Shown here: piece by piece, positions 16,277 to 41,720 of the stretch
How the letters are laid out: every line of letters begins with the position of its first letter
How positions within the stretch are numbered: position 1 is the first letter of the stretch
Assembly: GCA_964342815.1 (NCBI GenBank)
Contig: CAYFHS010000006.1
Span: 32,001 to 96,000, forward strand
Length of the DNA: 64,000 bases
Direction of reading: 5' to 3'
Origin: an uncultured archaeon
GTDB lineage: Archaea > Thermoplasmatota > Penumbrarchaeia > JASLWR01
Notes under the pieces: model-generated
Databases searched by the model: none
Seen by the model: only the letters and a program-made list of their open reading frames with translations
Told to the model about the DNA's origin: nothing
Translations under genes and position numbers: made by a program

Positions 16277-17674
16277 CTAATCCTCATGCATTATGTTGCC
16301 GAACAATTCTTCGTCGGTGGGCTGCGTGCTGGGTATCGGATACGATATCCAGGTGTAATTCAATAGATGTTCCCAGGTTACATTCGATGTTGTGCTGTTC
16401 CCCCCCCACGAGCCGCATCCCAAGGTCATTGACATGGGCATACCGTTTGTCCACGCCCCGCTGTTTGCCAGGCACTGCGGCTGCCTTATCATTATCCGTG
16501 ATACCTTCACGCTGAGCCCGAGCTCCCTGATGCGGGATTCTATTTTCGTATGTATACTGCAGGAATGGCCCGGTCCCGAAAAGGTTGTTATCCTGTTTAC
16601 GAGGTCTATGGCGTCTGGGAATTCCCTCCATTTGTAGAGGGTGGTGGTTACGGATAACTTTTCCCCGGAAAAGGGATAACCCACACCGACTCCCGTCTCC
16701 TCGATCATGATGAAGGTTTTTCCCTCCGGAAGGTCGATCCCCGCAAGTCCGGCAATCTTTTCCGGAGCTTGTGCAACGATGTCGCGGTTCAGTATTCCTC
16801 CGTCAACCCACATGGTATCCTGCAGCTTCTTCTTTTCTTCCGGGGATACCAGATATCCGCCTACGGCCTTAAGTTCATCCACCATATCATCGTAAACCTC
16901 TTCCTGAATTAGAATCGAGTTTTCAGTCGAGCAGCTCGTGGCATAATCGAATGTCTTGGATCGCATTATCTTGTCCGCGGCGTCCGCGAGGTCTGCCGTC
17001 TCGTCCACGATACACACTGAATTACCGGCACCAACTCCCTGGCTGGGGGTTCCGCTGCTGTATGCTGCCCTCACCATTCCGCTGCCGCCTGTGGCAAGGA
17101 TCATATCGCACTGCTTCATAAGCTCCTTGCTTGCTTGGACCGTGAGTTCATCGACGTTTATCACCAGATCTTCCGGCCAACCGTTCTTCTTCAATGTGGC
17201 CCTGATCCTGTTCGTAGCCATCTGATTGCAGGCAATTGTCCTGGGATGGGGTGCCATTATAATGGCATTTCTGGTCTTGATGGCTGTAATGGCTTTCACG
17301 AAGGGAGTCGCTTCGGCATTTGTAACCGGGATCAACGCACCGATGACACCCATTGGTTTAGCGATCTTAATGATACCTTTTTCTATGTCATGTTCGACGA
17401 TCCCTACGGATTTTTTACCTAACATATCCCGAAGGGTTCCCTTTATTTTTGTCATTATTTTACCGTATTTATGCGGTGCGTAGCCCATGCGGCTGTCCTC
17501 GACGCAGAACTCCGCCAGCTCGGTGGCGAATTTGGGTTCGACACCCGACCAGGCAACCCTTGTTGCCAGATCGTCCACCTGTTCCTGTGTAGCGAATTCA
17601 ATTTTTTTCTGTGCGGCTTTTGCCCGCTCTATTAGTCCTCTGATATAATCTGCAGCTTCCTGTTGGTCTGCCAT
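16277..17674 (-). CDS. CoA-acylating aldehyde dehydrogenase (SauS/EutE-like); putative malonate-semialdehyde dehydrogenase
   Basis: PMGVIGALIPVTN, ATGG, GVGAGN, KTFDYATSCSTENS (catalytic Cys), PFSGEKLS, GHSCSIH, TLGCGSWGGNS; GGAGGG RBS. Confidence 0.85.
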   Translation of the reverse strand: MADQQEAADYIRGLIERAKAAQKKIEFATQEQVDDLATRVAWSGVEPKFATELAEFCVEDSRMGYAPHKYGKIMTKIKGTLRDMLGKKSVGIVEHDIEKGIIKIAKPMGVIGALIPVTNAEATPFVKAITAIKTRNAIIMAPHPRTIACNQMATNRIRATLKKNGWPEDLVINVDELTVQASKELMKQCDMILATGGSGMVRAAYSSGTPSQGVGAGNSVCIVDETADLADAADKIMRSKTFDYATSCSTENSILIQEEVYDDMVDELKAVGGYLVSPEEKKKLQDTMWVDGGILNRDIVAQAPEKIAGLAGIDLPEGKTFIMIEETGVGVGYPFSGEKLSVTTTLYKWREFPDAIDLVNRITTFSGPGHSCSIHTKIESRIRELGLSVKVSRIMIRQPQCLANSGAWTNGMPMSMTLGCGSWGGNSTTSNVTWEHLLNYTWISYPIPSTQPTDEELFGNIMHED

Positions 17675-17735
17675 TAATTACCCTCCTTTATCTGGATTAT
17701 TTATTTCTTGAATTTTATATCCTTGGACCAGTTCT

Positions 17736-17930
17736 CGTGTAAAGCCGTCCCATTCTGGTTCAACTTTACCAAGAAGTCAGTCCAAATGTTCCTGACTTTA
17801 CGTGTAAAGCCGTCCCTTTTTGGTACGTCTTTACCAATAAGTCTGTCCAAATGTGCCTGACTTTACGTGTAAAGCCGTCCCATTCTGGCACGTCTTTACC
17901 AAGAAGTCAGTCCAAATGTTCCTGACTTTA
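17736..17930. repeat. Non-coding tandem repeat, 3 x 65 bp, each unit with two internal inverted repeats
   Basis: Units start at 17736, 17801, 17866 (cgtgtaaagccgtccc...cctgacttta); stems gtaaag/ctttac and aagtcag/ctgactt. Confidence 0.95.
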
Positions 17931-18015
17931 CTCATGAACTGCCCCTCGATCCTTTTCAACATGCTTGTCAAACTGCCGGATCCCATGGGAAATCCGTACA
18001 GGAATATGAACATTA

Positions 18016-19260
18016 CTATCTCGAGACCGGGGGTACTATTTCCTTCTTGCCCGGCACGTGTTCATAGCATATCATGGGGGGATCGGACACCGGACAGATG
18101 AAGGAGCAAATCATGCAGCTCACGCATTTTTCATCGTCAGGGATTGGTCTCCGTTTTCCCCCGTCCCAACCCAGGCACTGACCGCCGGCATCCCGGCAGA
18201 CGATATAGCACTGGCCGCACCCGATACACCGATCGAGGTCGTAACGGGCGACCCCCTGGTGATCCAGGTCGAAGGCATCCGTTGGGTGTATGTTGGGAAG
18301 TGCTTTTCCGACGAGTTCGGAAACGCTGTCGATGCCTTTCGAATCCATGAAATCGGAAAGCCCCTCTATCATGTCCTCCACTATCCCGTACCCGTAATGT
18401 ATGACGCCAGTGGTCATCTGGACCGTGGACGAACCGCAGAGTATATATTCAAGGGCATCCACCCACGTTTCGACACCGCCGAGGCCCGAAAGGGGCAGGC
18501 TAAGCTCTCTGCACTGGGCGAGCTGGGCTATGCAGCGAAGGCCGATGGGCTTCACCGCCGGTCCGGAGTATCCACTCATGGCGCTCTTTCCGGCCACGTT
18601 GGGATGTGGTATGAATGTATCGGGATCGATCCCCACCAGGGCACTCACAGTATTGATCGCCGAGATTCCATCCGCACCTCCCCTCTTTGCATAGAGAGCA
18701 GGCTCTGTGATATCGGTGATGTTGGGGGTCATCTTTGCTATGATGGGCAGTGAAGTGTTCTCCCGCACTATTCGGGTGAAGTTCTCAAGAAGTTCGAAGG
18801 CCTGCCCCACCTTCATTCCCGAGCCCTCAACTGTCATGTGGGGACAGGAAAAGTTAAGCTCCAGCATGTCGGCGCCGGTCTCCTCCACCCCCCTTGCCAG
18901 CAGGCCCCACTCCTCCTCGGAGAAACCCATTATACTTACTATGACCGGATGATCTGGATAATGCCTCTTCAAGTAGCTTATGTCGGCCAGGTTGTCCTCG
19001 AAGCTTCGGTCAGATATCTGTTCCACGTTCTGGAGACCTACAAGCTTTCGAGATTCGTAATCGTATCCTGCCATTCGCGGTGATGGGTGAATTATCTTTG
19101 TCCTACCCGCATGTACGGTCTTGAAGACGGCCCCCCCAAAACCCTGATCGAAAGCTCTTGCCACCATTTCCGCTGTGTTAGATACCGGCGAGGACGATAG
19201 AAGGAAGGGATTGGGAAACTGAACCCCACACATCTCGATACTCAAATCCTTTCCTGTCAT
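18016..19260 (-). CDS. preA: NAD-dependent dihydropyrimidine dehydrogenase subunit PreA
   Basis: FPNPFLLSSSP, GLQNVEQIS, ELNFSCPH, AKMTPNITDI, AINT, GYSGPAVKPI; C-terminal 2x[4Fe-4S] CIGCGQC and CVSCMICSFICP. Confidence 0.93.
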   Translation of the reverse strand: MTGKDLSIEMCGVQFPNPFLLSSSPVSNTAEMVARAFDQGFGGAVFKTVHAGRTKIIHPSPRMAGYDYESRKLVGLQNVEQISDRSFEDNLADISYLKRHYPDHPVIVSIMGFSEEEWGLLARGVEETGADMLELNFSCPHMTVEGSGMKVGQAFELLENFTRIVRENTSLPIIAKMTPNITDITEPALYAKRGGADGISAINTVSALVGIDPDTFIPHPNVAGKSAMSGYSGPAVKPIGLRCIAQLAQCRELSLPLSGLGGVETWVDALEYILCGSSTVQMTTGVIHYGYGIVEDMIEGLSDFMDSKGIDSVSELVGKALPNIHPTDAFDLDHQGVARYDLDRCIGCGQCYIVCRDAGGQCLGWDGGKRRPIPDDEKCVSCMICSFICPVSDPPMICYEHVPGKKEIVPPVSR

Positions 19261-20597
19261 TCAAACGCACCTCCTGCGGATTTATTTTCCTCAAGCATCT
19301 TCATTATACATTCGGCGGCTGTCTTGCCGTCCTGCACCGCCTGAACGATAAGAGCCGGTCCCCTTGCGGCATCCCCTCCGACGAATATCCTTTTATGGGT
19401 CGTTGAAACTCCATCATCGCCGGTCTTTACTAGGCCGTTTGGCAGATTTTCGACCAACTCGGAAAGCCCCTTGTTGCCCTCCTCGGACCTCATACCGATA
19501 GCCTTGACAAAAAAATCCACATTCAGACGGTATTCGGTCCCGGGAACGGTCACGAGATTCGCCGCAGAATGATCATCAGGGTTCTTCCAGTCTGTCTCGC
19601 AGCCCTTAAGACCGGTTAGCCTGCCGTCCTCGCCTATCAGCTCCGTGACAATACTCTGAGTGCGCAACGTAATGTTGTGGGAAAGGGCCAAATCGAGATC
19701 CTCCTCGTCTGCAGGCATCTCCCGGAGGCTGCGGCGGTAAATGACATAAACCTTGTTAGCGCCCAGGGTTGCACAAGTAGTGGCCGCGTCCATGGCAACG
19801 GAACCGCCTCCCACCACCGCAACGTTCTTGCCACGTATCTTTGATCCCAGTTCGACGTTCCTTCCCGATCTCATGCCCTCAAGGAACTTCTGCGAATCGG
19901 TAACGTTCACAAGATCGCTTCCCGGGATGTCCAATCGCGCAGGATTCCAAGTGCCTATTCCCATGAAGACGGCTTCGAATCCTTCCGAGAGGAGCCTGTC
20001 GGCCTCCCCCCTCTCGATCCTGCTTCTGGTTTTCAATTCCACTCCCAGGGTAAGAACGTCCTCAAGTTCACGTTCCACGAATTCCGTGTTCATGCGAAAT
20101 TCCGGCACGCCGTACCTTAGGACACCTCCCGCCTTCTCCCTCCCCTCGAATATAGTAATGCCGTACCCGTTCTTGGCCAGCTCGGCAGCACAGGCGAGGC
20201 CAGCAGGGCCGGAGCCGATGACTGCAATTTGTCCCTTCCCAGATCCCTTTTTCTTAATAGCATCAAATCCGGTCTCCCAGCCATATTCCACCAGGAACCT
20301 CTGGATCTTGCCGATTTCAATGGGACGGTCTATACCGGTGGCGCTGCACCCTTTCATACATAGTCTTTCCGTAGGACAGAGTGCGCCGCATATCCCTCCG
20401 AGTATGTTGTTGTTCTTTATGGTCCTTACTGCTCCCTTTATGTTCTTGAGCTTCAGTTTTCTAATGAATGTGCCCGGGTCCGTACCCGCAGGGCAGTCCC
20501 GGCTGCAGGGCGGCTCGTGGCAGTTCAGGCACCGGGACGCTTCGGAGATCGCTTGAAGAACACCATATGCCTTCTTATTACGTTCCAACCCGTTCAT
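19257..20597 (-). CDS. preT: Dihydropyrimidine dehydrogenase subunit PreT (GltD-like FAD/NAD oxidoreductase)
   Basis: EASRCLNCHEPPCSRDCP, CGALCPTERLC, IGSGPAGL, GGVLRYGVPEFR, VVGGGSVAMD, FVGGD; 4-bp overlap with preA. Confidence 0.9.
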   Translation of the reverse strand: MNGLERNKKAYGVLQAISEASRCLNCHEPPCSRDCPAGTDPGTFIRKLKLKNIKGAVRTIKNNNILGGICGALCPTERLCMKGCSATGIDRPIEIGKIQRFLVEYGWETGFDAIKKKGSGKGQIAVIGSGPAGLACAAELAKNGYGITIFEGREKAGGVLRYGVPEFRMNTEFVERELEDVLTLGVELKTRSRIERGEADRLLSEGFEAVFMGIGTWNPARLDIPGSDLVNVTDSQKFLEGMRSGRNVELGSKIRGKNVAVVGGGSVAMDAATTCATLGANKVYVIYRRSLREMPADEEDLDLALSHNITLRTQSIVTELIGEDGRLTGLKGCETDWKNPDDHSAANLVTVPGTEYRLNVDFFVKAIGMRSEEGNKGLSELVENLPNGLVKTGDDGVSTTHKRIFVGGDAARGPALIVQAVQDGKTAAECIMKMLEENKSAGGAFE

Positions 20598-20599
20598 AT

Positions 20600-21928
20600 C
20601 TAACCCTCCATCACCCTGAAAGCGTCATCCATAATCTCAAGGGATCTGTCTATCTGATCCATGGTCAATACCAATGGCGGCTGTATTCGGATAACATTTG
20701 CCAAAAGTCCCCCTAGTCCCAGAAGTAATCCGTTGTCCTTGCAAATTTCCATGAACTTCTTTGCTTCGGCCGTCCCGGGCGTCTTTTTCTCACGATCGCT
20801 AACCAGCTCAAACCCGATCATGAGTCCTTTTCCCCTGATATCACCGATCAATGCATGTTCCTCCATCATTTCATTGAGGCGCCGCTTGTAATAATTGCCC
20901 TTGGCCAGGGCTCCTTCCTGAAGGTTTTCCTTCTCTATTATCTCAAGATTGGAGAGCCCTGCTACCATGGCCAGCGGATTTCCGCCGAAGGTGGAGAACA
21001 GGTCTTTGGGCATGAGACAGTCGGATATTTCTTCGGAGGTAATAAGTGCCCCCATTGCAAAACCCGAACCAATGCCTTTTGCCATAGTCATCATGTCCGG
21101 TTTAACCCCCCAGTTCTCGATCCCCCAGAAATGCTTTCCGGTTCTTCCGAAACCGGTCTGTACCTCATCGCTAATAAAGAGCCCGTCGTATTTATGGACG
21201 ATCTCAGCCAGTATTGGAAAGAAATCCGGTACCGGCTCCGTAATACCCCCCACGCCCTGAAGTGGCTCGGCCAGCAGGGCCGCGACCCTCTTTGGCGTCT
21301 GACACCTTATTACCTTATCGGCGAACCACGCACATTCCATATCACACGTTTCGGGGTCCTTTCCGAAGTCACACCTGTAACAGTAACAGTTCGGCGTTCC
21401 TATGGTACCGGTGGCGTAGGTCATGTTTTGCCGCCAGGTGCCCTGGTTGGTAAGGCTCATGGCCATAAGCGTCCTCCCGTGAAAAGCTTCCAGCAGGGAG
21501 ACCACAAAATTGCAGTTGGTGTATTTTTTAGCAAGATGCAGTGCCGCTTCGTTCGCTTCGCTGCCCGAATTAACGAAAAAACATTTCTCTAAGCCTTCGG
21601 GGGAAATGGAAGCCAGTTTCTTGGCATATAGAGCCATGGGTATGGTAGGATAAAGCGTAGTGGTGTGCATCAAAAGGTCGAGTTGTTTTTTCAGGGCTTT
21701 GGTCATCGTGGGATGGCAGTGCCCCGAGTGAACGGTGCAGACACCTGCGAAAAGATCGATGTATGATTTACCTTCGCAGTCGAAGAGGATCGCTCCCTCA
21801 CCCTTGACGAATAATTTTGGTTCAGCATAGTAATGACCCACTGCGGGAACAAGGTGTTTTTTCTCTATTTCCAGTATGTCTTCTGTGGAGAATTTGCTTA
21901 AATTGAAAAGGTCTTCAAATTCACTCAT
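20600..21928 (-). CDS. Class III PLP aminotransferase (AGXT2-like); putative beta-alanine aminotransferase
   Basis: YIDLFAGVCTVHSGHCHP, FVNSGSEANE, FHGRT, AEPLQGVGG, DEVQTGFGRTG, TMAKGIG, TFGGNP; operon context. Confidence 0.88.
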   Translation of the reverse strand: MSEFEDLFNLSKFSTEDILEIEKKHLVPAVGHYYAEPKLFVKGEGAILFDCEGKSYIDLFAGVCTVHSGHCHPTMTKALKKQLDLLMHTTTLYPTIPMALYAKKLASISPEGLEKCFFVNSGSEANEAALHLAKKYTNCNFVVSLLEAFHGRTLMAMSLTNQGTWRQNMTYATGTIGTPNCYCYRCDFGKDPETCDMECAWFADKVIRCQTPKRVAALLAEPLQGVGGITEPVPDFFPILAEIVHKYDGLFISDEVQTGFGRTGKHFWGIENWGVKPDMMTMAKGIGSGFAMGALITSEEISDCLMPKDLFSTFGGNPLAMVAGLSNLEIIEKENLQEGALAKGNYYKRRLNEMMEEHALIGDIRGKGLMIGFELVSDREKKTPGTAEAKKFMEICKDNGLLLGLGGLLANVIRIQPPLVLTMDQIDRSLEIMDDAFRVMEG

Positions 21929-21983
21929 GATTATTTCACCTCACATATGTGGTAATTTATTTGCCCCTGGGAACCGTTGAAGA

Positions 21984-22853
21984 TCAGAGTTCTAAGAGGT
22001 CGTCGTACATTTCCGGCCGTCTGTCCCTGAAGAACTGCCATATGTTTCGCACCTCGTCGATCATGTCGAAATCCAGAGCGGCTGCAATGATCTCATCCTT
22101 GTCTCTGCTTCCTTCAGCAACAATCTGGCCTCGGGGGTCGCAGAAATAACTGGTACCGTAGAATTCACCGATGTTCCATGGTGCTTCAAATCCCACTCTG
22201 TTTATGGCACCGACGAAATACCCGTTGGCCACAGCATGGGCAGGCTGTTCCAGTTTCCAAAGATACTCGGAAAGTCCGGCAACTGTAGCAGAGGGGTTGA
22301 AAATAATCTCCGCTCCGTTCAATGCCAGTGCCCTTGCTCCTTCAGGGAAATGACGGTCGTAGCAGATGTATACCCCTACGTCAGCATATTCGGTCTCGAA
22401 CACTGGATACCCAAAATTCCCAGGTCGGAAATAATACTTTTCGAAAAATCCAGGCAGTACATGTGGTATGTGTGTCTTTCGATATTTTCCAAGGTAGGTT
22501 CCGTCGGCATCGATAACCGCGGCGGTATTATAATAGAAACCTGACATTTCCTTTTCATAAATAGGAACTATGAGGACCATGTGGTGCTTCTCTGCTAGAT
22601 CCATCATGGCTTCCGTGGTGGGACCGTCGGGTATCGGTTCTGCCATGTCATACCATTTTGGTCTCTGTTCGGCGGCGAAATAGGGCCCGTTGAACAGTTC
22701 CTGGAGACATAGTATCTTCACGCCCTTGGATGCGGCTTCTCCTATCAATTTCACATGCTTTTCCATCATGTAGCTCTTTATCTCGTCTACGGGAAGGTCG
22801 GTAGAAATATCGGCCTTGGCCTGTATCAATCCACATTTTACTATTCTTGACAT
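21984..22853 (-). CDS. Nitrilase-family beta-ureidopropionase (N-carbamoyl-beta-alanine amidohydrolase)
   Basis: Glu-Lys-Cys triad motifs CLQELF, KYRKTHIP, ICYDRHFPEG; FFRDRRPEMY tail; start refined to MSRIVK at 22853 by GGTGA RBS (ORF track begins 22883). Confidence 0.88.
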   Translation of the reverse strand: MSRIVKCGLIQAKADISTDLPVDEIKSYMMEKHVKLIGEAASKGVKILCLQELFNGPYFAAEQRPKWYDMAEPIPDGPTTEAMMDLAEKHHMVLIVPIYEKEMSGFYYNTAAVIDADGTYLGKYRKTHIPHVLPGFFEKYYFRPGNFGYPVFETEYADVGVYICYDRHFPEGARALALNGAEIIFNPSATVAGLSEYLWKLEQPAHAVANGYFVGAINRVGFEAPWNIGEFYGTSYFCDPRGQIVAEGSRDKDEIIAAALDFDMIDEVRNIWQFFRDRRPEMYDDLLEL

Positions 22854-22883
22854 GTTATTCACCATTTTATATATATTCGGCAA

Positions 22884-22999
22884 TGTCGATATTGATGGAA
22901 ATATGCCAATCTTATTTAAATTATTAATATATCATATACTTACTTGGACAAATTTCATACGGTATTGTTGAATCCAATGTTAAAGGCAGGGAGCTTCTG
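22884..22999. promoter_or_regulatory. Divergent promoter region (pyrimidine operon / sirtuin)
   Basis: AT-rich core cttatttaaattattaatatatcatatact with TATA-like boxes readable on both strands. Confidence 0.45.
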
Positions 23000-23788
23000 A
23001 TGGATTACGCGGAAAAAATCCGAAAAGCCATTGAATGGATCGTCGGATCGAACCGTCTTGTGATATTCACCGGCGCAGGGGTAAGTACGGAGTCTGGCCT
23101 CCCGGATTACCGCGGTCCCCATGGGGTATGGACCAGAAGGGACAAGGGATTGGCTCCGCCGAAGTCCAAAAACATGGATGAGGTCCATCCCAATCGGACC
23201 CATTATTCCCTGGTCGAGCTTTTGGGATTGGGGAAACTCAATTTTCTCATATCCCAGAACGTGGACAACCTGCATCTTGCTTCCGGAATACCCCCGGATA
23301 TGATCGCCGAGCTGCATGGAAATCACGCGTTGATGAAGTGCATGGATTGCGACCATCGCCTATCTTTCAGCAAAGCAGGATGGGATAAAGGTACCTGGGG
23401 ACAGGGGTATCGTACGCAAAAATCACGCTTGGGACAACCCCAATGTCCGAGGTGCAGCGGCCGGCTAATATCCAGTGTGGTGAATTTTGGAGACCCCATG
23501 CCTGAAAAAGAGATTTCCATATCAATGGAAAGGTCGAGAACCTGCGACGTCTTTATTGTCATTGGCTCTTCTCTAGTTGTTAGTCCGGCAGCTAATATGC
23601 CTGCACTGGCTCTCGAGAACGGCGCGAAATTGATCATTATTAATCAGGGTGAGACTCCTTACGACCACTTGGCCGAATTAAGGTTCTGGGAGAACGCCGG
23701 CTCTGTGATGGAAGATATAGTCAATGGATTGAAGAGAATTGTTCAGCAAAAGAGCAAATCCTATAATGTCAATAGAGCGAACAAGTAA
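23000..23788 (+). CDS. Sir2-family NAD-dependent deacylase, class IV (SIRT6-like)
   Basis: [35 protein letters not shown], CxxC...CxxC, GSSL, IIIN. Confidence 0.93.
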   Translation: [262 protein letters not shown]

Positions 23789-24256
23789 AGAAAATAAAGA
23801 GGGCCGATGACCCCCAAGGCAAACATCGGCCCGATAGAAAAATAATAATATCAAGCATACAGAGGAAGAGGGCCTGGTGCCCTCAGGGTCGGTGTGAGCC
23901 GACCTTATTTGTGCGAATAATATTGGTGAAACACTATTTGACGAGGCAGATGTTCCGCTAGAGCCACATCAGTCTTGAAATCTATTAGGCTAAATGAAAA
24001 GGCAGTTCCCCATCAAATCCTTTTCGAGGTTCGCCTGTTTGACAATATCCAAGAGAAAAGCACTTTGGCGTACCCAGATATGAATATATCGTACATAGCA
24101 GAATGAAATGAGTGGATGGCTGTTCAACGACAGACTAGTGAATTCCTTTTGACACTGTGGCGAGTTTATTTGAATACCACGTTTTACGAAATCAATAGTT
24201 ATAGTCCTAAGAATTTAAGTAACATAATCCAATATAAAGAAATTGAGGGGTATATT

Positions 24257-24838
24257 ATGTCACTCGTTACAATAGTATTTATTATTTTGTTGCTTATATT
24301 AAATGCTTGTCTAATAGGATTAATAATCTATTTTTGGAAAAATTTATCAGTCATAAAAGCAGAAAATAAAACACTTAAGGATAACCAATGGGAAATAAAG
24401 CAAGAATTTGAAAAAAATAAACTGATCGAAATTGAAAGAATAAAACAAACATGGGATGCTCAAAAACAAAATGAAATTGCGAACATAGTTGCACAGACAA
24501 GACAAGATACAAGCAATCGTTCAAGAGCAGCATTAAAAGGTAGAATTGGAGAACAAATGGCTCCACTAATGACAGAATTTTATTCGAAATACGAGTTATC
24601 TGATGCAAGGTTTATTGGAGAACCAATAGATTATATAATCTTTAAGAATTTATCTAAATACAAGTCCGAGAGAGAAAACAAAATTCCCCCGGACCAACGT
24701 TCACAAATTGAGATTATAATTGCTGACGTAAAGACTGGTAAAGCATATCTTAGTCAAGAACAAAGAAGAATTCGAGATGCTATATTATGTAAAAGAGTAA
24801 ATTGGGATATAATTCGTTTAACAATACCAGACGATTAA
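24257..24838 (+). CDS. Membrane-anchored Holliday-junction-resolvase-like PD-(D/E)xK endonuclease (Endonuc_Holl / COG4741-like)
   Basis: N-terminal TM, coiled coil, SRAALKGRIGEQMAP, ARFIGEPIDYIIF, DVKTG, LSQEQRRIRDAI; start refined to 24257 by GAGGGG RBS (ORF track begins 24116). Confidence 0.85.
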   Translation: MSLVTIVFIILLLILNACLIGLIIYFWKNLSVIKAENKTLKDNQWEIKQEFEKNKLIEIERIKQTWDAQKQNEIANIVAQTRQDTSNRSRAALKGRIGEQMAPLMTEFYSKYELSDARFIGEPIDYIIFKNLSKYKSERENKIPPDQRSQIEIIIADVKTGKAYLSQEQRRIRDAILCKRVNWDIIRLTIPDD

Positions 24839-24901
24839 AATGTGAGTACAGTTAACTAACAATTATTTGCCCATTGACTTCACGTAACTCTCTTGGCTTC
24901 T

Positions 24902-25300: not shown

Positions 25301-28300
25301 ATGTTCGGTTCTCTGAAAAGGTCTCTTAATGTCTTTATACTTGTCCTTATGATAACCAGCAGTTCTTATCATTTTTCCTTCCCGACCGATGATGGAGATA
25401 CTTTTTATAACGGTAAAATACGCAGGGTCGACTTAGATATCGATACCTCCCAGGAATCAACTAGGGCTGAATTGTCTCAGATACTACTAACCGAAACTTT
25501 CGAATCCAATTCTTTTGCAACAAATGGATGGGCCAAGGAGGACGGCAGCGGCGGGGTCGAGATAGTCACCACCAACCCGAAGAATGGTACACGACACCTG
25601 CATTTCAAAGGAAACAGCTATAATACACACGGCTATATTTCAAAGGTTTTGAACCTGTCCGCTTATTCCCAAGCAGTCCTGGAATTCGAAGCCTACGGGG
25701 GGCCTAGCAGCGGTGGAGGTATAGACGGACCGGGAGGAAGCGAGGACATTCTCTGGGTGGATTTTCGTTCGTCGGCAACCAGCCAATGGACCACTTTAAA
25801 CTACTGGCATGGAGCTAACTGCAGCCTAAACCAGTACCGCTTCGAAAGAGTGACCCTACCTTCTTCGTCGTTTACGAACACCAGTGCAATTCGATTTAGA
25901 AACAAGATAAGTGTGAATAGCGAGTATTATCGCATTGACGATATTAAGGTAAAAGCAGCACCGCAGTTGGAAATTAATACTGATAACATCGCAGCTACTC
26001 CATCCTCGATATTGAGATACAATGGGACTATTAATATAAGCGGATCGTTCACGGATGACGTTGGTTTCGGGATATTGGATTATAAAATATCAATCGGAAT
26101 AAGGGATCCGGAGGGAAAAGAGACTCTATTGATAGATAACAAAACAAGCGGGAACGATTCTCTGAATATTCAACAACAGTCGCCAGGTGAATTTAATTTT
26201 TTCTACATCTGGTCCCCTTCGGAGAATTTTCTTTTCGGTAAATACGATATCAATATTAAGGTCTACCACAGACTCGGATGGAAATGTCTGCTTAGTTATG
26301 ACGATAATGATTGTAACTTCACACTTTTATCCGTAGCTCCTTACTTTCGGAATGAGTCTATCTTTTTCGAAAAAGAACCTCTAAACGCTCTGGACCCGGA
26401 TGGGATTCCAATTACAATAAAATTCCATGATGTTGATCGCCAATCCCCCGATGACTTTTTCATGAATCTGACCCTACGAGGAACGGAGAACAATATTACT
26501 ATATTCAAAAGTGCAACAAACGTGTCCGGGCTGAATATTTCAATGACGGAAAACGGGACCTACGAAGCAGCCCACGTATGGTATCCGGAAAATCCGGATG
26601 ATTTGGTCGAGGGGAGATACAGCGTTGACCTTGGTTTGTGGGAGGAAGGCGGACCGTTGGTAGAGATGGAAATCTTTAATATCGAAAGAAACGTCACTCT
26701 GGTAAAGAGATATGTTCCAGGGATAATATCACTGGCGTGTCAACCGGACACTATCAATATGAGCGGTTCCGGGAAAACCACGATACAGGGTGAGTTTTTC
26801 GATAAGGACACGAGCTCCATGATGGATTTCGAAATATCACTGAAGATAAGGGATGGAGATGATAAGGAGATAATTCTTACAGATGGGGCAAAGAGCGGCG
26901 AGAATGGTGTAATCATCGAGAAATCGGGAATATTCAGGTGGCGTATTACTTTTGCATATGATCCCCCGGTGACCCTTCGTCCGGGACCCTATGATCTTTA
27001 TATGGATGTATTCGACGGTGAATCAACCCTCACTAGTGAAGGGTTTAATAACAATACCGATGAGCTGTTTATTTACAACAACACCAGTCCAATAATCCAT
27101 GAGATCACACTCAGCAGATCGGTAGTGAACAAATACGGCAATGATTCCGCAAGGCTGAGCATCATCTTTTCAGATCCAGATGGCGAATCCATGGGTAATT
27201 TCACCATCAATCTGACCCTAATTGACTCGGAGGGCAATTTATATACACTGGTGAACGGTGAAAAGGAAGGCCCCAATGCAAGCATATCGTATCTGGCCCC
27301 CATAGACGGTCACAGTTACGTATTCACGTTTGATATCGACCCAGATACTTCGTTTACGGAGGGCCCGTACGGACTGTCTTTCAATGTCCGGGACAAATGG
27401 GGTGGTATTGATGGATTGGCTTACGGTGAGAACGACCTGAACCTTACTTTCTTCTACAATTATATACCGTCCCCTCCATCGAAAATTTGGCCCAACAGCA
27501 CCACCGATAAGCTTCCATTGATAAGCTGGTGGGGGGCATTGGACCTGGAAACACCCCACGAAGAGCTCGAGTATTCTATAAGGATCGGAACCGCCGGAGT
27601 TGACGATAATATCCTGGCCTGGCACGATGTAGGCCAGCGAACGACCTATCAGGTAATGGAAGAACTTGAGGTAGGTTTTTACCATATCCAGGTAAAGAGT
27701 TATGACGGTGATTTTTACTCCGAAGTTTCCAGCTCCATCATGACCATTGCCCCTGATGGCAATCACCCTCCAGGGGTGCCTGGTGCCATCAGTCCGCTTT
27801 ACACCGTCCGTCGAGATCCCACCATCACCTGGGATGCCAGTATTGACCGGGATGTCAACGATCTTATCGAGTACTTCATAAGCATTGGAACGGACTGGCA
27901 TGCCAGTGATATCATAAAGAGCACACCCACCAGTGTGAACACGATCTACCAGCTACCGTTCATGCTGTCCTACGGCACATATTACGTTCAGGTTATGGCC
28001 ACCGACGGATACGAATTTTCCCCTGTCAGGGAACAGCGGATGATCATCTTCGATCCGTCAGATAACATAGCTCCGTTCCCGCCCAAATCTATTATGCCGG
28101 ATGTGACCCGGAACCCATACCCATTGATCCAGTGGGAAGGCGCCGTGGACCTGAACGGCGACGACCTTCTTTTCTGGTTCAGGATAGGCAGCGGCCCCGG
28201 CCAGGGGGATATTATACCTTGGAGTAGCACGGGGAAGAGCAATTATTTCCAGATCGAGAAGTCAATGGCCCCCGGGGATTATTATGTCCAGGTAAAATGT

Positions 28301-30265
28301 TATGACAGCCAGGCATTCTCAAGGATATTCGAAGCAGTTATCCGGGTGAAAACGGAAAGAGAAATCATCGGTCCCACGGAGATCATACCTCGTATCTCAT
28401 CGGATCCCACGCCTCTCATAAACTGGAGCGGAGCACATTACATGAACAGTCCCGGTACAAATGAAAACTTTTCTTACCTTATCCGTTTAAGCAGCGAGCC
28501 TTCTCTCGGTGATCTGCTCCCGTGGAGTCTGGTTTCGAATACTACGAGTTATCAGGTGGAAAAGCCCTTAAGACGCGGCGATACTGTTTATGTGGAGATC
28601 AAGGCATTCGATGGGCACCAGTATTCCGAAGTTTCAATATTCGATCTGTGGATCGGTGATTTTTCTCTGACGGTTGGGTTCAACGAAACGAACTATATCT
28701 ATAAGATAACGGGAGAGGCCAATCAGACCATCCGAGGATTCATCAAGAACAGCGGCCGGGATGACGTTACCGTGGAACTGGGTTTGGGCGGTACTTTTGC
28801 GAAATACGTCAAAGTACCAGCAGAGCCGCTTCATATCAAAAGCGGGGAGATGGTGAGCGTTCTTCTGACGGTGAACATACCCGATTCGGCCAATGTGAAC
28901 CGTGACTCGGTGATCGTTCTAATAGCCACTTCGACGGATGGTGCTGCCGCTCAGTCCGAGCTTTTGGGATTCGCAAGAGAGAAAGCGGAGGATGAAACAT
29001 GGAGTGAGGCACTGGGGATGAACCTGAACCTAATTCTCGGTTCTATAGTGCTGTTATTGGCTTTTTTCATTCTCCTTATATTGATAGTAAAACGTTCAAA
29101 GCGAGGTAAACGTGAACGATTCGAAGTAATGGAGGTGTCTAAAAGCTCCGAGGCCGTGGTAATCGATGATCTCGTACAGACCAGCATCTATTCCACCCAA
29201 CGCTTAAGCGATCGGCGTACCTTCGAAGCACTGGACAAGACGCTTCTCAAAATGTTCAAGGCTCATGGTGTAAGAACGAAATCCAGAGTGAAAGGCCAAA
29301 AGGGCAGGGCATTGGGTGATGGTAGCAAGGGTAAGAAGACTCCAGCACTTCCACCTCCATCTCCCGGTGCGCTAGAGCCGGGAGAAGTTAAGAAAATGCC
29401 GCCACCTCCAGGAGAACGTGTAGAGTTCCTTCCGCCGGGGGAGGACGTCCCGGCTGAGGAGCTTCCTCCCGCTCCGGAAATGGAATACATTCCGCCTGAG
29501 GGGTCCGGGAAGACACCTGTGGCCATTGGGGATGCCATAGTTGATGCAGAGGAAATTACCGAGAAAATACTTGAGTCCGATGAGATATCGGAACAACCGG
29601 AAGCGGATGCCGTTGCGGTTTCGTTAGAAGATGACGAGAACGTCGATGAAATGCCTGAGGGATTTGCGGAAACGCCCGAAGATGTATCAGTTGCAGTTGA
29701 GGGAGATGGTGAAGAGCCACTCTACGACTTGTCGGAAGATGCCGGGTCACTCCGGCCTACAGGAGATGATGATGATTCGGAACTGTCCGAAGTATTATCA
29801 CAGGATATGGATGAGGATTCGGAACTGTCCGAAGTATTATCACAGGATATGGATGAGGATTCGGGAATATCAGATGCAGTGACGGATGAGCCAAACAAGG
29901 GTGATCCGGCGGAACCGGATGAGCCACTCGAGTCGGCGGAACCGGATGAGTCTCATCCTGAAGAATCCGTCATTCAACCCGATTCCCCCATTGGAGCCGA
30001 GCCGTCAGGGGAGGTGGCTCCCGAACCTAGATCCGAATCACCGGAGCCGGTAGAGCAGCCAAAAGAGCCCGAAACTCCGCCTTCGGAAGCTGATATGTCA
30101 GTACCATCCGAAGGGGATCGCCCAACCACGGATGATCCGACGCCCCCGAAGTCCCTGGAGGAGGCTCCCGAGGCGGAAAAGGAAGATAGCGCAACTGATG
30201 TCGGTGACGATTCCAGCGCCCTTGATGATATAATGGATATACTGGGTATCGATGAGGATGAGTAA
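25301..30265 (+). CDS. Giant single-pass surface protein (jelly-roll tip, Ig-like and FN3-like stalk, TM, long acidic Pro-rich cytoplasmic tail), paralog 1
   Basis: Signal-like N-terminus; four ~125-aa Ig-like repeats; four FN3-like repeats (PxIxW...YxIxIG...YxVQVxxxDG); TM LILGSIVLLLAFFILLILIV followed by KRSKR. Confidence 0.85.
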   Translation: MFGSLKRSLNVFILVLMITSSSYHFSFPTDDGDTFYNGKIRRVDLDIDTSQESTRAELSQILLTETFESNSFATNGWAKEDGSGGVEIVTTNPKNGTRHLHFKGNSYNTHGYISKVLNLSAYSQAVLEFEAYGGPSSGGGIDGPGGSEDILWVDFRSSATSQWTTLNYWHGANCSLNQYRFERVTLPSSSFTNTSAIRFRNKISVNSEYYRIDDIKVKAAPQLEINTDNIAATPSSILRYNGTINISGSFTDDVGFGILDYKISIGIRDPEGKETLLIDNKTSGNDSLNIQQQSPGEFNFFYIWSPSENFLFGKYDINIKVYHRLGWKCLLSYDDNDCNFTLLSVAPYFRNESIFFEKEPLNALDPDGIPITIKFHDVDRQSPDDFFMNLTLRGTENNITIFKSATNVSGLNISMTENGTYEAAHVWYPENPDDLVEGRYSVDLGLWEEGGPLVEMEIFNIERNVTLVKRYVPGIISLACQPDTINMSGSGKTTIQGEFFDKDTSSMMDFEISLKIRDGDDKEIILTDGAKSGENGVIIEKSGIFRWRITFAYDPPVTLRPGPYDLYMDVFDGESTLTSEGFNNNTDELFIYNNTSPIIHEITLSRSVVNKYGNDSARLSIIFSDPDGESMGNFTINLTLIDSEGNLYTLVNGEKEGPNASISYLAPIDGHSYVFTFDIDPDTSFTEGPYGLSFNVRDKWGGIDGLAYGENDLNLTFFYNYIPSPPSKIWPNSTTDKLPLISWWGALDLETPHEELEYSIRIGTAGVDDNILAWHDVGQRTTYQVMEELEVGFYHIQVKSYDGDFYSEVSSSIMTIAPDGNHPPGVPGAISPLYTVRRDPTITWDASIDRDVNDLIEYFISIGTDWHASDIIKSTPTSVNTIYQLPFMLSYGTYYVQVMATDGYEFSPVREQRMIIFDPSDNIAPFPPKSIMPDVTRNPYPLIQWEGAVDLNGDDLLFWFRIGSGPGQGDIIPWSSTGKSNYFQIEKSMAPGDYYVQVKCYDSQAFSRIFEAVIRVKTEREIIGPTEIIPRISSDPTPLINWSGAHYMNSPGTNENFSYLIRLSSEPSLGDLLPWSLVSNTTSYQVEKPLRRGDTVYVEIKAFDGHQYSEVSIFDLWIGDFSLTVGFNETNYIYKITGEANQTIRGFIKNSGRDDVTVELGLGGTFAKYVKVPAEPLHIKSGEMVSVLLTVNIPDSANVNRDSVIVLIATSTDGAAAQSELLGFAREKAEDETWSEALGMNLNLILGSIVLLLAFFILLILIVKRSKRGKRERFEVMEVSKSSEAVVIDDLVQTSIYSTQRLSDRRTFEALDKTLLKMFKAHGVRTKSRVKGQKGRALGDGSKGKKTPALPPPSPGALEPGEVKKMPPPPGERVEFLPPGEDVPAEELPPAPEMEYIPPEGSGKTPVAIGDAIVDAEEITEKILESDEISEQPEADAVAVSLEDDENVDEMPEGFAETPEDVSVAVEGDGEEPLYDLSEDAGSLRPTGDDDDSELSEVLSQDMDEDSELSEVLSQDMDEDSGISDAVTDEPNKGDPAEPDEPLESAEPDESHPEESVIQPDSPIGAEPSGEVAPEPRSESPEPVEQPKEPETPPSEADMSVPSEGDRPTTDDPTPPKSLEEAPEAEKEDSATDVGDDSSALDDIMDILGIDEDE
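29774..29864 (+). repeat. In-frame 42-bp tandem duplication (DSELSEVLSQDMDE x2)
   Basis: Exact DNA repeat starting 29774 and 29816, with a partial third copy at 29858. Confidence 0.9.
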
Positions 30266-30427: not shown

Positions 30428-33400
30428 ATGTTGATAAAACTGCTGAAGAGGATTATGTTATCCCGTATCTTAATTTTTTTACTTTCGTGTTCGGTGATTT
30501 TTCCCTCGATATTTTCAGCAATTATTTATTCTAATCATCATTATAATGGGAAAGTGGTTTCAAATGGAGAAAACACCCGGAAAGTTCATTTTTCGAGAGA
30601 TCGAGCTTCCATTATTATCTTTGAAGATGATGTGGAACCGGGCGGGGATGCCGCGAACGGACTTTGGGCGATAACCGAGCTGGTGGATGAGGGTACTTGT
30701 GAGCCATGGGCCATAAGCTCAAGCAGGTCCCACAGTGCGACCCATTCATGGTGGATCGATGACAGTGATAAAAGGACCGCAGAGGTGATGGATACTCCAT
30801 TGATCAACATTCCCCGACAAGTTACTGACCCGGAACTGAGATTCTGGCACTATATTGATACCGAGAGCAGCTATGACGGCGGTTGGCTGCAGTACCGAAA
30901 GGACAACGGTGCATGGACCGACGTGCCAAAGGGAATAATCTCGAAAAACGCCTATAACGATCGTATAGGCTTTCAGGGTTCAGGGATACCTTCGCAGGTC
31001 GAAAAACAGGCGTGGTCCGGCAAACCCTATGCCGCTTTCTCGGAAGTTGTGGTGGATCTCACTAGTCTGAACCTTTCTGGACATATGCTGAATATCAGAT
31101 GGAGATTCGAATCTGACGGTGCTGTTGGAGGTGGGGGATGGTGGGTTGATGACGTAAAGATTACCGTGGAACCCAAACTTGTATTTGATAACGGCTCCAT
31201 AAGCTCTTCAGCGTCATCCCTGTATCGATATAACGGAACCACGAATATCACTGGCTTTTTTTCGGACCTAGCGGGATACGAGATCAATGATTATGAACTT
31301 ACCCTGGCCATCCGCGACCCGGAGATGAATGTTACGAATATATTAGACAACCAAACCCATGGTAATCATTCATTGAATGTGTTTAAACTATCACCGGGGA
31401 ATTTCTCCTTTTCCCTGAAACTGATACCCTCCTTGGACTTGCCATTCGGACCCTATGATATTTCGGTCTCAATAAGTAATGTAAATGGTTGGAATGACAG
31501 CGTCTCATTCGATGAAAATGATGCTACCTTTACGCTTCTCTCAACCCCCCCCTTTTTCAGAAATGAAACCGTCTATATCTTGGGTAACACTATAAATGTT
31601 CTTGATCACCGCGGTATTGCCATCAAGATAGTTTTCCATGATCCGGATGCCCAGGATCCCAACGATTTCTCGTTGGACCTATATCTGTCCGGATTCAATG
31701 TAAGGATTACCCTATTCGAAAATTCAACCAATAGCTCCGGTCTGGATATATCTAGGGGACCTGATAATGTATATAATGTATCATACATATGGCACCCTGA
31801 AGAGCCGGAAACGATGCTCGAGGGCAGGTATGAAATTGAATTAATCTTAAGGGAAGGTGACGATTATGAAATCGATCTGGGAATGTTCGATATTGCCCGT
31901 AATGTCACAATTGCAAAGGGATATGTCCCGGATATAATTTCACTCTCGTGTCTGCCCGAGACATTGAATGTAAGCGGTTCCGCAAGCACGGTATTTTTTG
32001 GAAGCTTCATTGACCCCGATACCCTCGATCCGGGTGATTTCCTGGTAACTATCAATGTACGAGATAGATATGGGGCGGTTGTTGAGATCGTCGATAACGG
32101 GAGTAATGGTGAGAAAGGAATCACAATAGTGAAAGAGGAAGCTGCGCTTTGGACTGTAAGCTGTCCATATGATCCCCCCGACGACGTATCACTGGGTTAC
32201 TACGACCTCGCCATAGGTTTGCTAGACGGTGATTTCTCATACGTATCCACCGGGTTCCATAACAATTCTGACGAATTACAGCTCTACCGCAACGCCAATC
32301 CCGTAATCGAAGAGGTGGAATGCAGCGCGCTCAGGGTAAACGTATTCGGAGAGGATTCCTGCCGTTTCAGCGCGGTTTTTTCTGATGCGGATGCCGAATC
32401 AATTGGGAATTTTTCGGTCTATCTTAATTTATTGGACCCTGAGGGAAATGTTCATGGTTTGGTGGGCGGACCCGGTGAGGATCTCAATGCGTCTGCAATG
32501 TATATCAGTCCTCTTGACAGCACCCTTTTTGTTTTCAGATATGACATCGACCCGCCTTCTAAGTTCATGGAGGGAGAATATCTGCTGTCCTTCGGTATTA
32601 GGGACGGTTGGCAGGGTTTGGATTCCCTGAGCTTTGGAGAGATATTGATAAATCTGTCGTTCTTTTACAACTCATTTCCTTCACCTCCCATGAAGATATG
32701 GCCGAACAGCACCACTGATACATTCCCCTTTATCTCATGGTGGGGTGCATTGGACAAGGAAACACCCCACGATAAATTGAAATACTGGATACAGATAGGA
32801 ACCTCCCCGGGAGACGACAACGTTCTTGCATGGTATAATACCAACTTCTCAACCTCCTACCAGCCCTTCAGGGAACTTATTACTGGCGTTTATTATATCC
32901 AGGTACGGTGTTTCGATGGTGAATATTACTCCGATACAGCGGAAATTGCAATGACAATAACCAGGACCGGTAACCGCCCACCAGAAATTCCGGGACCCAT
33001 CAGCCCAAAAAATACCGTAAGACAGGATCCCATGATTACTTGGGGAGCCAGTACTGAATATGATGTGAATGATATCATTGAATATACCATAACCATTGGG
33101 ACGGATTGGCATTCAAGTGATATAATGAAGGACATTCCCACCGGTGTCAATACGTTCTATCAGCTTCCGTTCAAGCTGGAATACGGCACCTATTACGTGC
33201 AGATCTCGGCGAACGACGGCTATGAGTTCTCCCCTGTTAGGGAGCAGGCCCTGGTTGTATTCGATCCTACCGATAATCTACCACCTTATCCCCCATCATC
33301 GCTGGAACCACGGGAAACGAGAAATTCCCTTCCATTTATCTCCTGGTCAGGTTCTATGGATCTCAACGGAGATACGCTTTTTTTCTGGCTTCAGATCGGG

Positions 33401-41565: not shown

Positions 41566-41720
41566 CAAAGATAAATAATTATTCCGTTCGATTTTGGATA
41601 ACGCAAAGAATTAATATATACGAGCTATATCGGAGAATTCCCTTCAAGCTTGTATCGAGCCATCTATCTCGAAGTAATCTTGGACCTGAACTCTCAAAAA
41701 ATACAGGAAGTGATACCACG

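What the first reader, a model, noticed from the sequence alone, without database searches (positions are those of the whole stretch)
23000..23788. SIRT6-like (class IV) sirtuin in an archaeon
Seen: [22 protein letters not shown]...[12 protein letters not shown]...[17 protein letters not shown]...IAELHGN. Known, recalled from memory: human SIRT6 reads [21 protein letters not shown]...RPTQTHMALVQL...LRFLVSQNVDGLHVRSG...LAELHGN, and uniquely replaces the helical bundle after the cofactor loop with a short loop, as here; class IV was classically described as eukaryotic, with typical archaeal sirtuins in class III/U. Inference: a prokaryotic relative of SIRT6/7, possibly a long-chain deacylase or ADP-ribosyltransferase. 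Its divergent pairing with an acyl-CoA-producing operon hints at acylation control.
Basis: partly seen in the sequence, partly recalled or inferred. Interest (0 to 1): 0.7.

Follow-up and report, generated by a model that had tools for sequence, protein, structure and literature searches.

The report
SIRT6-like short-loop sirtuin, non-Asgard archaeon
The gene is a real, intact NAD-dependent protein deacylase of the prokaryotic sirtuin family that is sister to eukaryotic SIRT6/7, but this family is already described in Asgard archaea and bacteria, and this copy sits in a marine Thermoplasmatota-like archaeon where it is rare and probably laterally acquired.

Summary
Window 23000-23788 (+) encodes a 262-aa sirtuin with every quoted motif. 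Human SIRT6 is its best solved relative by sequence (168 bits against 142 for Sir2-Af2) and by fold. The helical module after the cofactor loop is replaced by a 25-residue loop.

The class IV reading is largely right. In an ML tree the protein lies in a prokaryotic short-loop clade (99/85). That clade is sister to a monophyletic eukaryotic SIRT6-like clade (100/100) and is well separated from canonical class U/III-type sirtuins (100/98).

Three corrections:
- **Host:** it is not an Asgard archaeon. The genome has no actin or ESCRT-II hit, and its EF-2 groups with Thermoplasmata. The gene was found in 5 of 401 genomes of the host phylum against 109 of 301 Asgard genomes.
- **Family range:** the family also occurs in Dehalococcoidia, Desulfobacteraceae, Polyangiaceae, Acidobacteriota and Rubrobacter.
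- **Neighbour link:** the pairing with the pyrimidine-catabolism operon, which ends in a CoA-acylating step, is kept only within the genus.

The family is already published. Asgard sirtuins were placed next to SIRT7 in 2022, and in 2026 LoSIR2b, about 60% identical and collinear, was shown to deacetylate histone tails.

SIRT6-specific traits are absent, so long-chain deacylase or ADP-ribosyltransferase activity is unsupported.

Verdict: a new member of a known kind, of modest interest.

The parts
23000..23788 (+). Short-loop (class IV-like) sirtuin gene, 262 aa, protein P0001
   Evidence: ORF and translation. Pfam SIR2 107.8 bits. Best PDB match is human SIRT6, 168 bits. AF2 model pLDDT 88.8. 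Foldseek TM 0.79 and VIA Z 27.5 to SIRT6.
23072..23086 (+). GAGVS NAD-binding motif (residues 25-29)
   Evidence: G25, A26, G27 and S29 are invariant in the 45-sequence family alignment A1. The motif aligns to SIRT6 GAGIS.
23096..23203 (+). Cofactor-loop region (residues 33-68), [19 protein letters not shown]...HPNRTH: 25 residues between Arg38 and Pro64, with no helix bundle
   Evidence: DSSP on the model shows no helix of 4 or more residues between 33 and 65. The same span is 42 residues in the own-genome paralog and 44 in E. coli CobB. The paralog model has helices 54-58, 63-67 and 73-89 there.
23255..23266 (+). QNVD motif (residues 86-89), ribose and nicotinamide pocket
   Evidence: Q86, N87 and D89 are invariant in A1. 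The motif aligns to SIRT6 QNVD.
23309..23323 (+). ELHGN with catalytic His106 (residues 104-108)
   Evidence: All five residues are invariant in A1. The motif aligns to SIRT6 ELHGN, which holds His133.
23339..23455 (+). Zinc module: Cys114-x2-Cys117 ... Cys149-x2-Cys152, with the family-specific W-x5-G-x-GYR insert between the pairs
   Evidence: C114, C117, C149, C152, W128, G134, G136, Y137 and R138 are invariant in A1. SIRT6 has no Cys opposite C149 (alignment).
22884..22999 (.). 116-bp AT-rich divergent intergenic region between the sirtuin and the catabolic operon
   Evidence: Sequence read. It holds TATA-like runs and a GGGAG 8 nt upstream of the ATG. No promoter was tested.
16277..22883 (-). 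Neighbouring, not functionally linked: operon of CN-hydrolase, class-III aminotransferase, PreT-like, PreA and CoA-acylating aldehyde dehydrogenase
   Evidence: Pfam and NCBIfam. PreA scores 513 bits, above its 335-bit cut-off. Synteny with the sirtuin is kept only in the same-genus genome.

Best explanation
P0001 is a catalytically intact NAD+-dependent protein-lysine deacylase, most likely a deacetylase. It belongs to the prokaryotic short-loop, class IV-like sirtuin family.

Mechanism, inferred from conserved residues and sirtuin chemistry: an acyl-lysine side chain enters the cleft between the Rossmann domain and a canonical Cys4 zinc module. NAD+ is held by GAGVS, Arg38, Gln86/Asn87/Asp89, Ser190 and Asn215. 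His106 acts as the general base. The products are nicotinamide, 2'-O-acyl-ADP-ribose and the free lysine.

As in SIRT6, the flexible cofactor loop and helix bundle of other sirtuins are replaced by a short 25-residue loop.

The host is a marine Thermoplasmatota-like archaeon. The gene is rare in that phylum and was probably gained laterally; the donor is unresolved, and the nearest sequences are from Asgard archaea.

The natural substrate is unknown. Chromatin proteins (Alba, or the atypical histone-fold protein) and acyl-CoA-synthetase-type metabolic enzymes are the usual candidates.
For: **Shown here**
- The ORF is intact and every catalytic, NAD-binding and zinc residue is invariant across 45 homologs.
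- SIRT6 is the best solved relative: 168 bits, against 142 for Af2, 101 for SIRT7 and 75 or less for SIRT1/3/5. Foldseek gives TM 0.79 and rmsd 3.1 A. VIA gives Z 27.5 and rmsd 2.5 A over 236 residues, against Af2 at Z 26.4 and rmsd 4.6 A.
- The helical module is absent in the model and present in the control model of the genome's own canonical paralog.
- Careful ML tree of 103 rows: the split between canonical and short-loop sirtuins has 100/98 support, the eukaryotic class IV clade 100/100, and the prokaryotic short-loop clade 99/85.
- Host: no actin or EAP30 hit. All named EF-2 neighbours are Thermoplasmata or Thermoplasmatota.
- The gene is native to the lineage: orthologs of 80% and 66% identity occur in two other genomes of the same family.
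- Frequency: 5 of 401 genomes in the host phylum against 109 of 301 in the Asgard phylum.
- There is no match to any defence-system SIR2 model.

**From the literature**
- LoSIR2b of Lokiarchaeum has a published sequence that is collinear with P0001. It is about 60% identical by my manual count and has the same short loop, WG-GYRT insert and VVNFGDPMP motif. It deacetylates histone-tail peptides in an NAD-dependent way.
Against: - No activity, substrate or expression data exist for this protein.
- The VIA Z-scores for SIRT6 and Sir2-Af2 differ by only about 1, so the fold comparison alone is nearly a tie.
- In a JBC 2023 zymograph study, class IV sirtuins showed no significant activity on short acyl-peptides. 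Weak or substrate-dependent activity is therefore possible.
- The host has no typical tailed histone detectable with PF00808, so the histone-tail role shown for LoSIR2b may not transfer.
- True SIRT7 sequences were not in my tree.
Confidence: 0.85

Rival explanations
1. The sirtuin specifically controls acylation of enzymes of the divergently transcribed pyrimidine/beta-alanine catabolic operon, or senses its acyl-CoA product.
For: The two transcription units are 116 bp apart and divergent. The operon ends in a CoA-acylating aldehyde dehydrogenase. The arrangement is kept in a same-genus genome.
Against: The pairing is absent in the next genus of the same family (L004/L005). It is also absent in the Asgard loci examined, which show PHP and PIN/T2SSE neighbours instead. 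Genus-level synteny is expected without any functional link.
Confidence: 0.08
2. It works mainly as a long-chain (myristoyl-type) deacylase or as a protein mono-ADP-ribosyltransferase, as reported for SIRT6, rather than as a deacetylase.
For: SIRT6 is the closest solved structure, and the short loop is shared. Several acyl-channel positions recalled from SIRT6 are conserved or conservatively replaced in the alignment: Ile61 to Leu34, Pro62 to Pro35, Trp71 to Trp44, Val115 to Val88 (the residue roles are from memory).
Against: The protein starts at the equivalent of SIRT6 residue about 28, so it lacks the SIRT6 N-terminus that (from memory) helps form the acyl pocket. SIRT6 Phe82 corresponds to Lys55. 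The SIRT6 LDWED segment reads the canonical VNFGD here. The family member LoSIR2b is an efficient deacetylase.
Confidence: 0.07
3. It is an ordinary class U/III archaeal sirtuin that lost its helical module independently, so the likeness to SIRT6 is convergent.
For: Sir2-Af2 scores only 26 bits below SIRT6 and is nearly tied in VIA Z.
Against: The tree separates 13 canonical long-loop sequences from all 90 short-loop sequences with 100/98 support. The short loop has a conserved sequence, [17 protein letters not shown], shared across archaea, bacteria and largely eukaryotes. That argues for a single origin.
Confidence: 0.03
4. The contig is an Asgard contaminant binned into a Thermoplasmatota genome.
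For: The nearest named homologs of the sirtuin are all Asgard. The genome is a MAG with 3.2% estimated contamination.
Against: Two other genomes of the same family carry orthologs at 80% and 66% identity, with genus-level synteny. This parallels the 94-76% identity of the closest unnamed EF-2 relatives. P0001 with P0002, P0006 and P0009 forms its own clade (100/99), outside the main Asgard clade.
Confidence: 0.03

Closest known systems
LoSIR2b (GNAMCCOK_01652) of Candidatus Lokiarchaeum ossiferum B35, and its Asgard orthologs
   Same: It has the same length class (about 250 aa) and the same 25-26-residue loop. It shares QNVD, ELHGN, the CxxC...CxxC zinc module, the W...WG.GYRT insert and VVNFGDPMP. 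It is collinear with P0001 and about 60% identical by manual count from the sequence printed. P0001 is 58-64% identical to named Asgard homologs.
   Different: The host differs: Thermoplasmatota-like, not Asgard. P0001 and its three closest relatives form a separate clade. The host lacks detectable tailed histones, so the substrate may differ. Only LoSIR2b has biochemical data.
Human SIRT6 (class IV sirtuin; PDB 3K35, 3PKI, 3ZG6)
   Same: It is the best solved match: 168 bits, about 35% identity, TM 0.79, rmsd 2.5 A over 236 residues. The cofactor-loop region aligns without gaps. The helix bundle is missing. The QNVD and ELHGN motif variants are shared.
   Different: P0001 has no N- or C-terminal extension (262 against 355 aa). 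It has a canonical CxxC second zinc pair where SIRT6 has Cys166-x10-Cys177. It reads VNFGD where SIRT6 reads LDWED. It carries a 10-residue longer insert between the zinc pairs. In the tree it lies outside the eukaryotic clade.
Bacterial short-loop sirtuins (Dehalococcoidia, Desulfobacteraceae, Syntrophia, Polyangiaceae, Acidobacteriota, Rubrobacter)
   Same: They are 48-55% identical and have the same 23-25-residue loop and motifs. In the tree they interleave with archaeal sequences in one clade.
   Different: They are from a different domain of life. Some carry N-terminal fusions (P0129 at 537 aa, P0131 at 481 aa). None that I know of has been characterised.
Sir2-Af2 of Archaeoglobus fulgidus and the genome's own canonical paralog (L001:1396-2169)
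   Same: They share the Rossmann-plus-zinc sirtuin core and the catalytic residues. Af2 scores 142 bits and VIA Z 26.4.
   Different: They keep the 42-44-residue helical module. They fall on the other side of the 100/98 split in the tree.

Membership tests
Sirtuin (SIR2) NAD-dependent deacylase superfamily | Match to the SIR2 domain above the curated threshold | tested here: met
   PF02146 scores 107.8 bits against a cut-off of 24.
Sirtuin (SIR2) NAD-dependent deacylase superfamily | GAGxS, QNxD and catalytic His, plus four zinc-binding Cys | tested here: met
   G25-S29, Q86/N87/D89, H106 and C114/C117/C149/C152 are all present and invariant in 45 homologs.
Sirtuin (SIR2) NAD-dependent deacylase superfamily | NAD+-dependent deacylase activity | not testable with these tools
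   Activity has been shown only for the family member LoSIR2b, in a preprint.
Class IV sirtuins (SIRT6/SIRT7 lineage, Frye 2000) | Phylogenetic grouping with SIRT6/7 to the exclusion of classes I, II, III and U | tested here: inconclusive
   The protein groups with a eukaryotic SIRT6-like clade against canonical class U/III-type prokaryotic sequences (100/98), and it lies in the sister clade rather than inside the eukaryotic one. Classes I and II and true SIRT7 could not be fetched. PDB scores for SIRT1/3/4/5 are 82 bits or less, against 168 for SIRT6. A published tree places Asgard relatives next to SIRT7.
Class IV sirtuins (SIRT6/SIRT7 lineage, Frye 2000) | Short cofactor loop with no helix bundle between the Rossmann fold and the zinc module | tested here: met
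   The loop is 25 residues, against 42-44 in canonical sirtuins. The model has no helix there, while the control paralog has three.
Class IV sirtuins (SIRT6/SIRT7 lineage, Frye 2000) | Class IV motif variants: GIPD(F/Y)RGPxGVWT, QNVD, ELHGN (recalled from memory) | tested here: met
   P0001 reads [13 protein letters not shown], QNVD and ELHGN. These align column for column with SIRT6.
SIRT6 orthologs | Zinc motif Cys-x2-Cys ... Cys-x10-Cys | tested here: not met
   P0001 has CPRC. SIRT6 has only the last Cys there and places its third Cys about 10 residues upstream (alignment).
SIRT6 orthologs | N-terminal extension and C-terminal nuclear-targeting extension | tested here: not met
   P0001 residue 1 aligns to SIRT6 residue 26-28, and the protein ends shortly after the core.
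SIRT6 orthologs | Placement inside the eukaryotic SIRT6 clade | tested here: not met
   The eukaryotic clade is monophyletic (100/100) and excludes P0001.
Defence-system SIR2 NADases (Thoeris ThsA, DSR, SIR2-HerA, pAgo-SIR2) | Match to PADLOC SIR2 models, with defence partner genes nearby | tested here: not met
   There is no PADLOC hit at E of 0.01 or lower. A zinc module and deacylase motifs are present. No partner genes are adjacent.

The most novel reading that the evidence does not exclude
A marine, non-Asgard (Thermoplasmatota-like) lineage acquired an Asgard-type, SIRT6/7-related chromatin deacetylase. Unverified notes from other windows suggest it holds other eukaryote-like genes as well. 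If so, 'eukaryotic signature' chromatin and regulatory modules would circulate laterally among archaea. The origin of eukaryotic class IV sirtuins, whether Asgard, bacterial or a wider prokaryotic pool, would then remain open. My AU test does not reject a clade of eukaryotes plus Asgard (p = 0.24), and the best tree makes all prokaryotic short-loop sirtuins the sister group.
Probability: 0.15. Interest if true: 0.5.

Novelty: new member of a known kind. Interest (0 to 1): 0.3.

Why it matters
The sirtuin itself is an ordinary, intact enzyme of a family that has already been noticed and partly characterised. The modest value lies in its distribution:
- The class IV-like family is not a signature of Asgard archaea alone. 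It is spread patchily over several bacterial phyla, Bathyarchaeia and a few Thermoplasmatota.
- Any claim that eukaryotes inherited SIRT6/7 vertically from Asgard archaea therefore needs a phylogeny that samples these groups.
- This copy offers a natural test of what such an enzyme does in a host without tailed histones.

Tried and rejected
- **Asgard host.** I first assumed the host was Asgard, because all named homologs were. I rejected this after finding no actin or EAP30 hit and Thermoplasmata EF-2 neighbours.
- **Reference sequences.** I could not fetch class I and II reference sequences or true SIRT7. The three eukaryotic representatives I checked score about 200 bits to SIRT6 and about 185 to SIRT7. 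SIRT6-versus-SIRT7 affinity is therefore untested.
- **E. coli CobB as outgroup.** In the quick tree it gave a 3.99 substitutions-per-site branch, so I left it out of the careful tree.
- **Cluster names.** Names for the closest relatives (P0002, P0006, P0009) and for odd representatives were empty.
- **Exact LoSIR2b sequence.** It was not among the fetched proteins or loci. Identity was counted by hand from the printed supplement and is approximate.
- **Sequencing runs.** No RNA holder is listed for 21900-24900. The DNA is held in marine and seawater metagenome runs of 8 studies.
- **PADLOC.** There were no hits.
- **Complex prediction.** Not used, because no specific partner is claimed.

Full report
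**1. Observation**

Window 23000-23788 (+) is an ATG-started ORF of 262 aa. The recalled SIRT6 strings are reproduced in the phmmer alignment to human SIRT6 chains.

Pfam SIR2 scores 107.8 bits in two stretches, and profile positions 27-55 have no counterpart. NCBIfam finds only sub-threshold CobB-type matches.

**2. What the protein is**

Scores against all PDB sequences:

| Solved relative | Bits | Note |
|---|---|---|
| Human SIRT6 | 168 | E 1.6e-48; one stretch, ungapped through the cofactor loop |
| Sir2-Af2 | 142 | |
| Sir2-Af1 | about 117 | |
| Sir2Tm | 111 | |
| SIRT7 | 101 | |
| SIRT4, SIRT3, SIRT5, SIRT1 | 82 or less | |

An AlphaFold2 model built on 45 homologs has pLDDT 88.8.
- Foldseek ranks thirty SIRT6 chains first, with TM about 0.79 and rmsd about 3.1 A. 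Af2 follows at TM about 0.67.
- VIA-align gives SIRT6 Z 27.5 with rmsd 2.5 A over 236 residues. Af2 gets Z 26.4 with rmsd 4.6 A over 227 residues. This is a near-tie in Z but a clear difference in rmsd and coverage.

The region between Arg38 and Pro64 is 25 residues with no helix of four or more residues. The same span is 42 residues in the genome's second, canonical sirtuin (L001:1396-2169) and 44 in E. coli CobB. A control model of that paralog (pLDDT 90.3) has three helices there.

All NAD-binding, catalytic and zinc residues are present and invariant in the family. No defence-type SIR2 model matches.

**3. Relatives and phylogeny**

The 120 best homologs are 58-80% identical. Every named one is from Asgard archaea, and JGI labels several 'mono-ADP-ribosyltransferase sirtuin 6'.

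In a library clustered at 50% identity, the next-best representatives are long proteins with one ungapped stretch. Those that carry names are eukaryotic: chytrids, Diversispora, Paratrimastix, Branchiostoma 'sirtuin-6-like', and MMETSP and EukProt transcripts.

A scan of GTDB species genomes found at least 598 stretches that encode a relative of the query. Among the best 80, the short-loop form is carried by loci from Asgard groups, Bathyarchaeia and Freyarchaeia, and by 48-55% identical copies in Dehalococcoidia, Desulfobacteraceae and Syntrophia, Polyangiaceae, Acidobacteriota and Rubrobacter. Several of these lie on contigs over 300 kb.

A careful ML tree was built with 103 rows under LG+C20+F+G4 PMSF. 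The bootstrap had not fully settled.

| Grouping | Rows | Support (UFBoot/SH-aLRT) |
|---|---|---|
| Canonical long-loop against short-loop | 13 against 90 | 100/98 |
| Eukaryotic class IV clade | 28 | 100/100 |
| Prokaryotic short-loop clade, archaea and bacteria interleaved | 62 | 99/85 |
| P0001 with P0002, P0006 and P0009 | 4 | 100/99 |

An AU test does not reject eukaryotes plus the main Asgard clade as one clade (p = 0.244). The donor of eukaryotic class IV is therefore unresolved here. True SIRT7 was not sampled: the three eukaryotic representatives checked score about 200 bits to SIRT6 and about 185 to SIRT7.

**4. Host**

The 4.35-Mb, 89%-complete genome gave no hit to Actin or to ESCRT-II EAP30. 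For its EF-2, all named neighbours are Thermoplasmata or Thermoplasmatota at 65-69% identity, and unnamed relatives reach 76-94%.

The sirtuin has orthologs of 80% and 66% identity in two other genomes of the same family, but none was found in a third. Overall it was found in 5 of 401 sampled genomes of the host phylum, against 109 of 301 in the phylum of an Asgard genome.

The gene is therefore native to this small lineage, rare in its phylum, and probably laterally acquired. The locus DNA is held in marine and seawater metagenome runs.

**5. Context**

The divergent minus-strand operon (22883 down to 16277) encodes, in order:
- a CN-hydrolase (beta-ureidopropionase or N-carbamoyl amidase type);
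- a class-III aminotransferase;
- a PreT-like subunit;
- PreA (513 bits, above its cut-off);
- after a 340-bp gap, a CoA-acylating aldehyde dehydrogenase.

This looks like reductive pyrimidine and beta-alanine catabolism ending in an acyl-CoA.

The pairing is kept in the same-genus genome. It is not kept in the next genus or in two Asgard loci. I see no support for a functional link.

**6. Comparison with what is known**

- Frye's class IV was eukaryotic. A 2021 review already assigns some bacterial sirtuins to class IV.
- Grau-Bove et al. reported Asgard sirtuins as sister to SIRT7.
- A 2026 preprint shows that Lokiarchaeum LoSIR2b deacetylates histone-tail peptides in an NAD-dependent way, and that Asgard SIR2s can restore silencing in yeast.
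- The LoSIR2b sequence printed in its supplement is collinear with P0001 and shares its diagnostic motifs. It is about 60% identical by my manual count.
- From memory, NCBI CDD cd01410 also describes class IV as including bacterial homologs. I could not check this here.

P0001 is not a SIRT6 ortholog. It lacks the N- and C-terminal extensions. It has a canonical CxxC where SIRT6 has Cys-x10-Cys. It reads VNFGD where SIRT6 reads LDWED. The long-chain deacylase or ADP-ribosyltransferase suggestion therefore has no specific support.

**7. Function in this host**

The shown steps are an intact catalytic apparatus and membership of a family with a biochemically active member. The inferred step is lysine deacetylation of host proteins.

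The genome has Alba (69.5 bits), no HU, and only one atypical 218-aa histone-fold ORF without a lysine-rich tail. A histone-tail role may therefore not transfer. Alba or metabolic enzymes are equally plausible substrates.

**8. Verdict**

Novelty is low, because the family is already described and partly characterised. The host assignment, the breadth of the family and the neighbour link needed correction. Interest is 0.3.

The same stretch was also flagged in an overlapping window of this scan (e1-5506580).

Noticed in passing
window 24116-24838 (+): A 240-aa protein with an N-terminal membrane segment and an Endonuc_Holl domain (PF10107, 87.9 bits). This gene is missing at the syntenic position in the same-genus genome (L093), so it is a recent insertion or deletion.
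   Followed up: partly
window 16277-22883 (-): Operon of CN-hydrolase, class-III aminotransferase, PreT-like, PreA (above the NCBIfam cut-off) and a CoA-acylating aldehyde dehydrogenase (SauS-like, 521 bits). It looks like reductive pyrimidine and beta-alanine catabolism, but no dihydropyrimidinase lies in the cluster.
   Followed up: partly
window 13910-16231 (+): A 773-aa fusion of a eukaryote-type Ser/Thr protein kinase domain (158 bits) with a C-terminal FGE-sulfatase domain (110 bits).
   Followed up: no
window 25301-30265, 30428-35599, 41562-46394, 48579-52103 (+); 8296-11391 (-): A series of very large proteins of 1031-1723 aa. The 1654-aa one starts with a hydrophobic N-terminal segment, has a late hydrophobic segment, and ends in a long acidic, proline-rich tail with a repeated DSELSEVLSQDMDED unit. 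The 1031-aa one has GLUG and He_PIG domains.
   Followed up: no
Asgard genomes G613 (C9:775429-777123), G676 (C29:28111-29715), G682 (C323:18478-20069), G646 (C190:72314-73963): Two adjacent copies of the short-loop sirtuin, i.e. tandem duplications, occur in several Asgard genomes.
   Followed up: no
P0122 (408 aa), P0129 (537 aa), P0131 (481 aa): These are short-loop sirtuin domains with N-terminal extensions of 160-290 residues of unknown nature. P0129 groups with Dehalococcoidales sequences, and P0122 falls within the main Asgard clade.
   Followed up: no
G000 C20:43402-43584 (L090:1111-1767, -), G000 C10:27054-27236: The host genome shows only one weak histone-fold hit (22.7 bits), in a 218-aa multi-fold ORF without a lysine-rich tail. 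It has a clear Alba gene, no HU, and no actin or EAP30 hit. This is an unusual chromatin-protein set for an archaeon carrying an Asgard-type sirtuin.
   Followed up: partly
L001:1396-2169 (G000 C5): A second, canonical long-loop sirtuin of 257 aa, resembling LoSIR2a of Lokiarchaeum in its motifs. The genome thus has one sirtuin of each type.
   Followed up: partly
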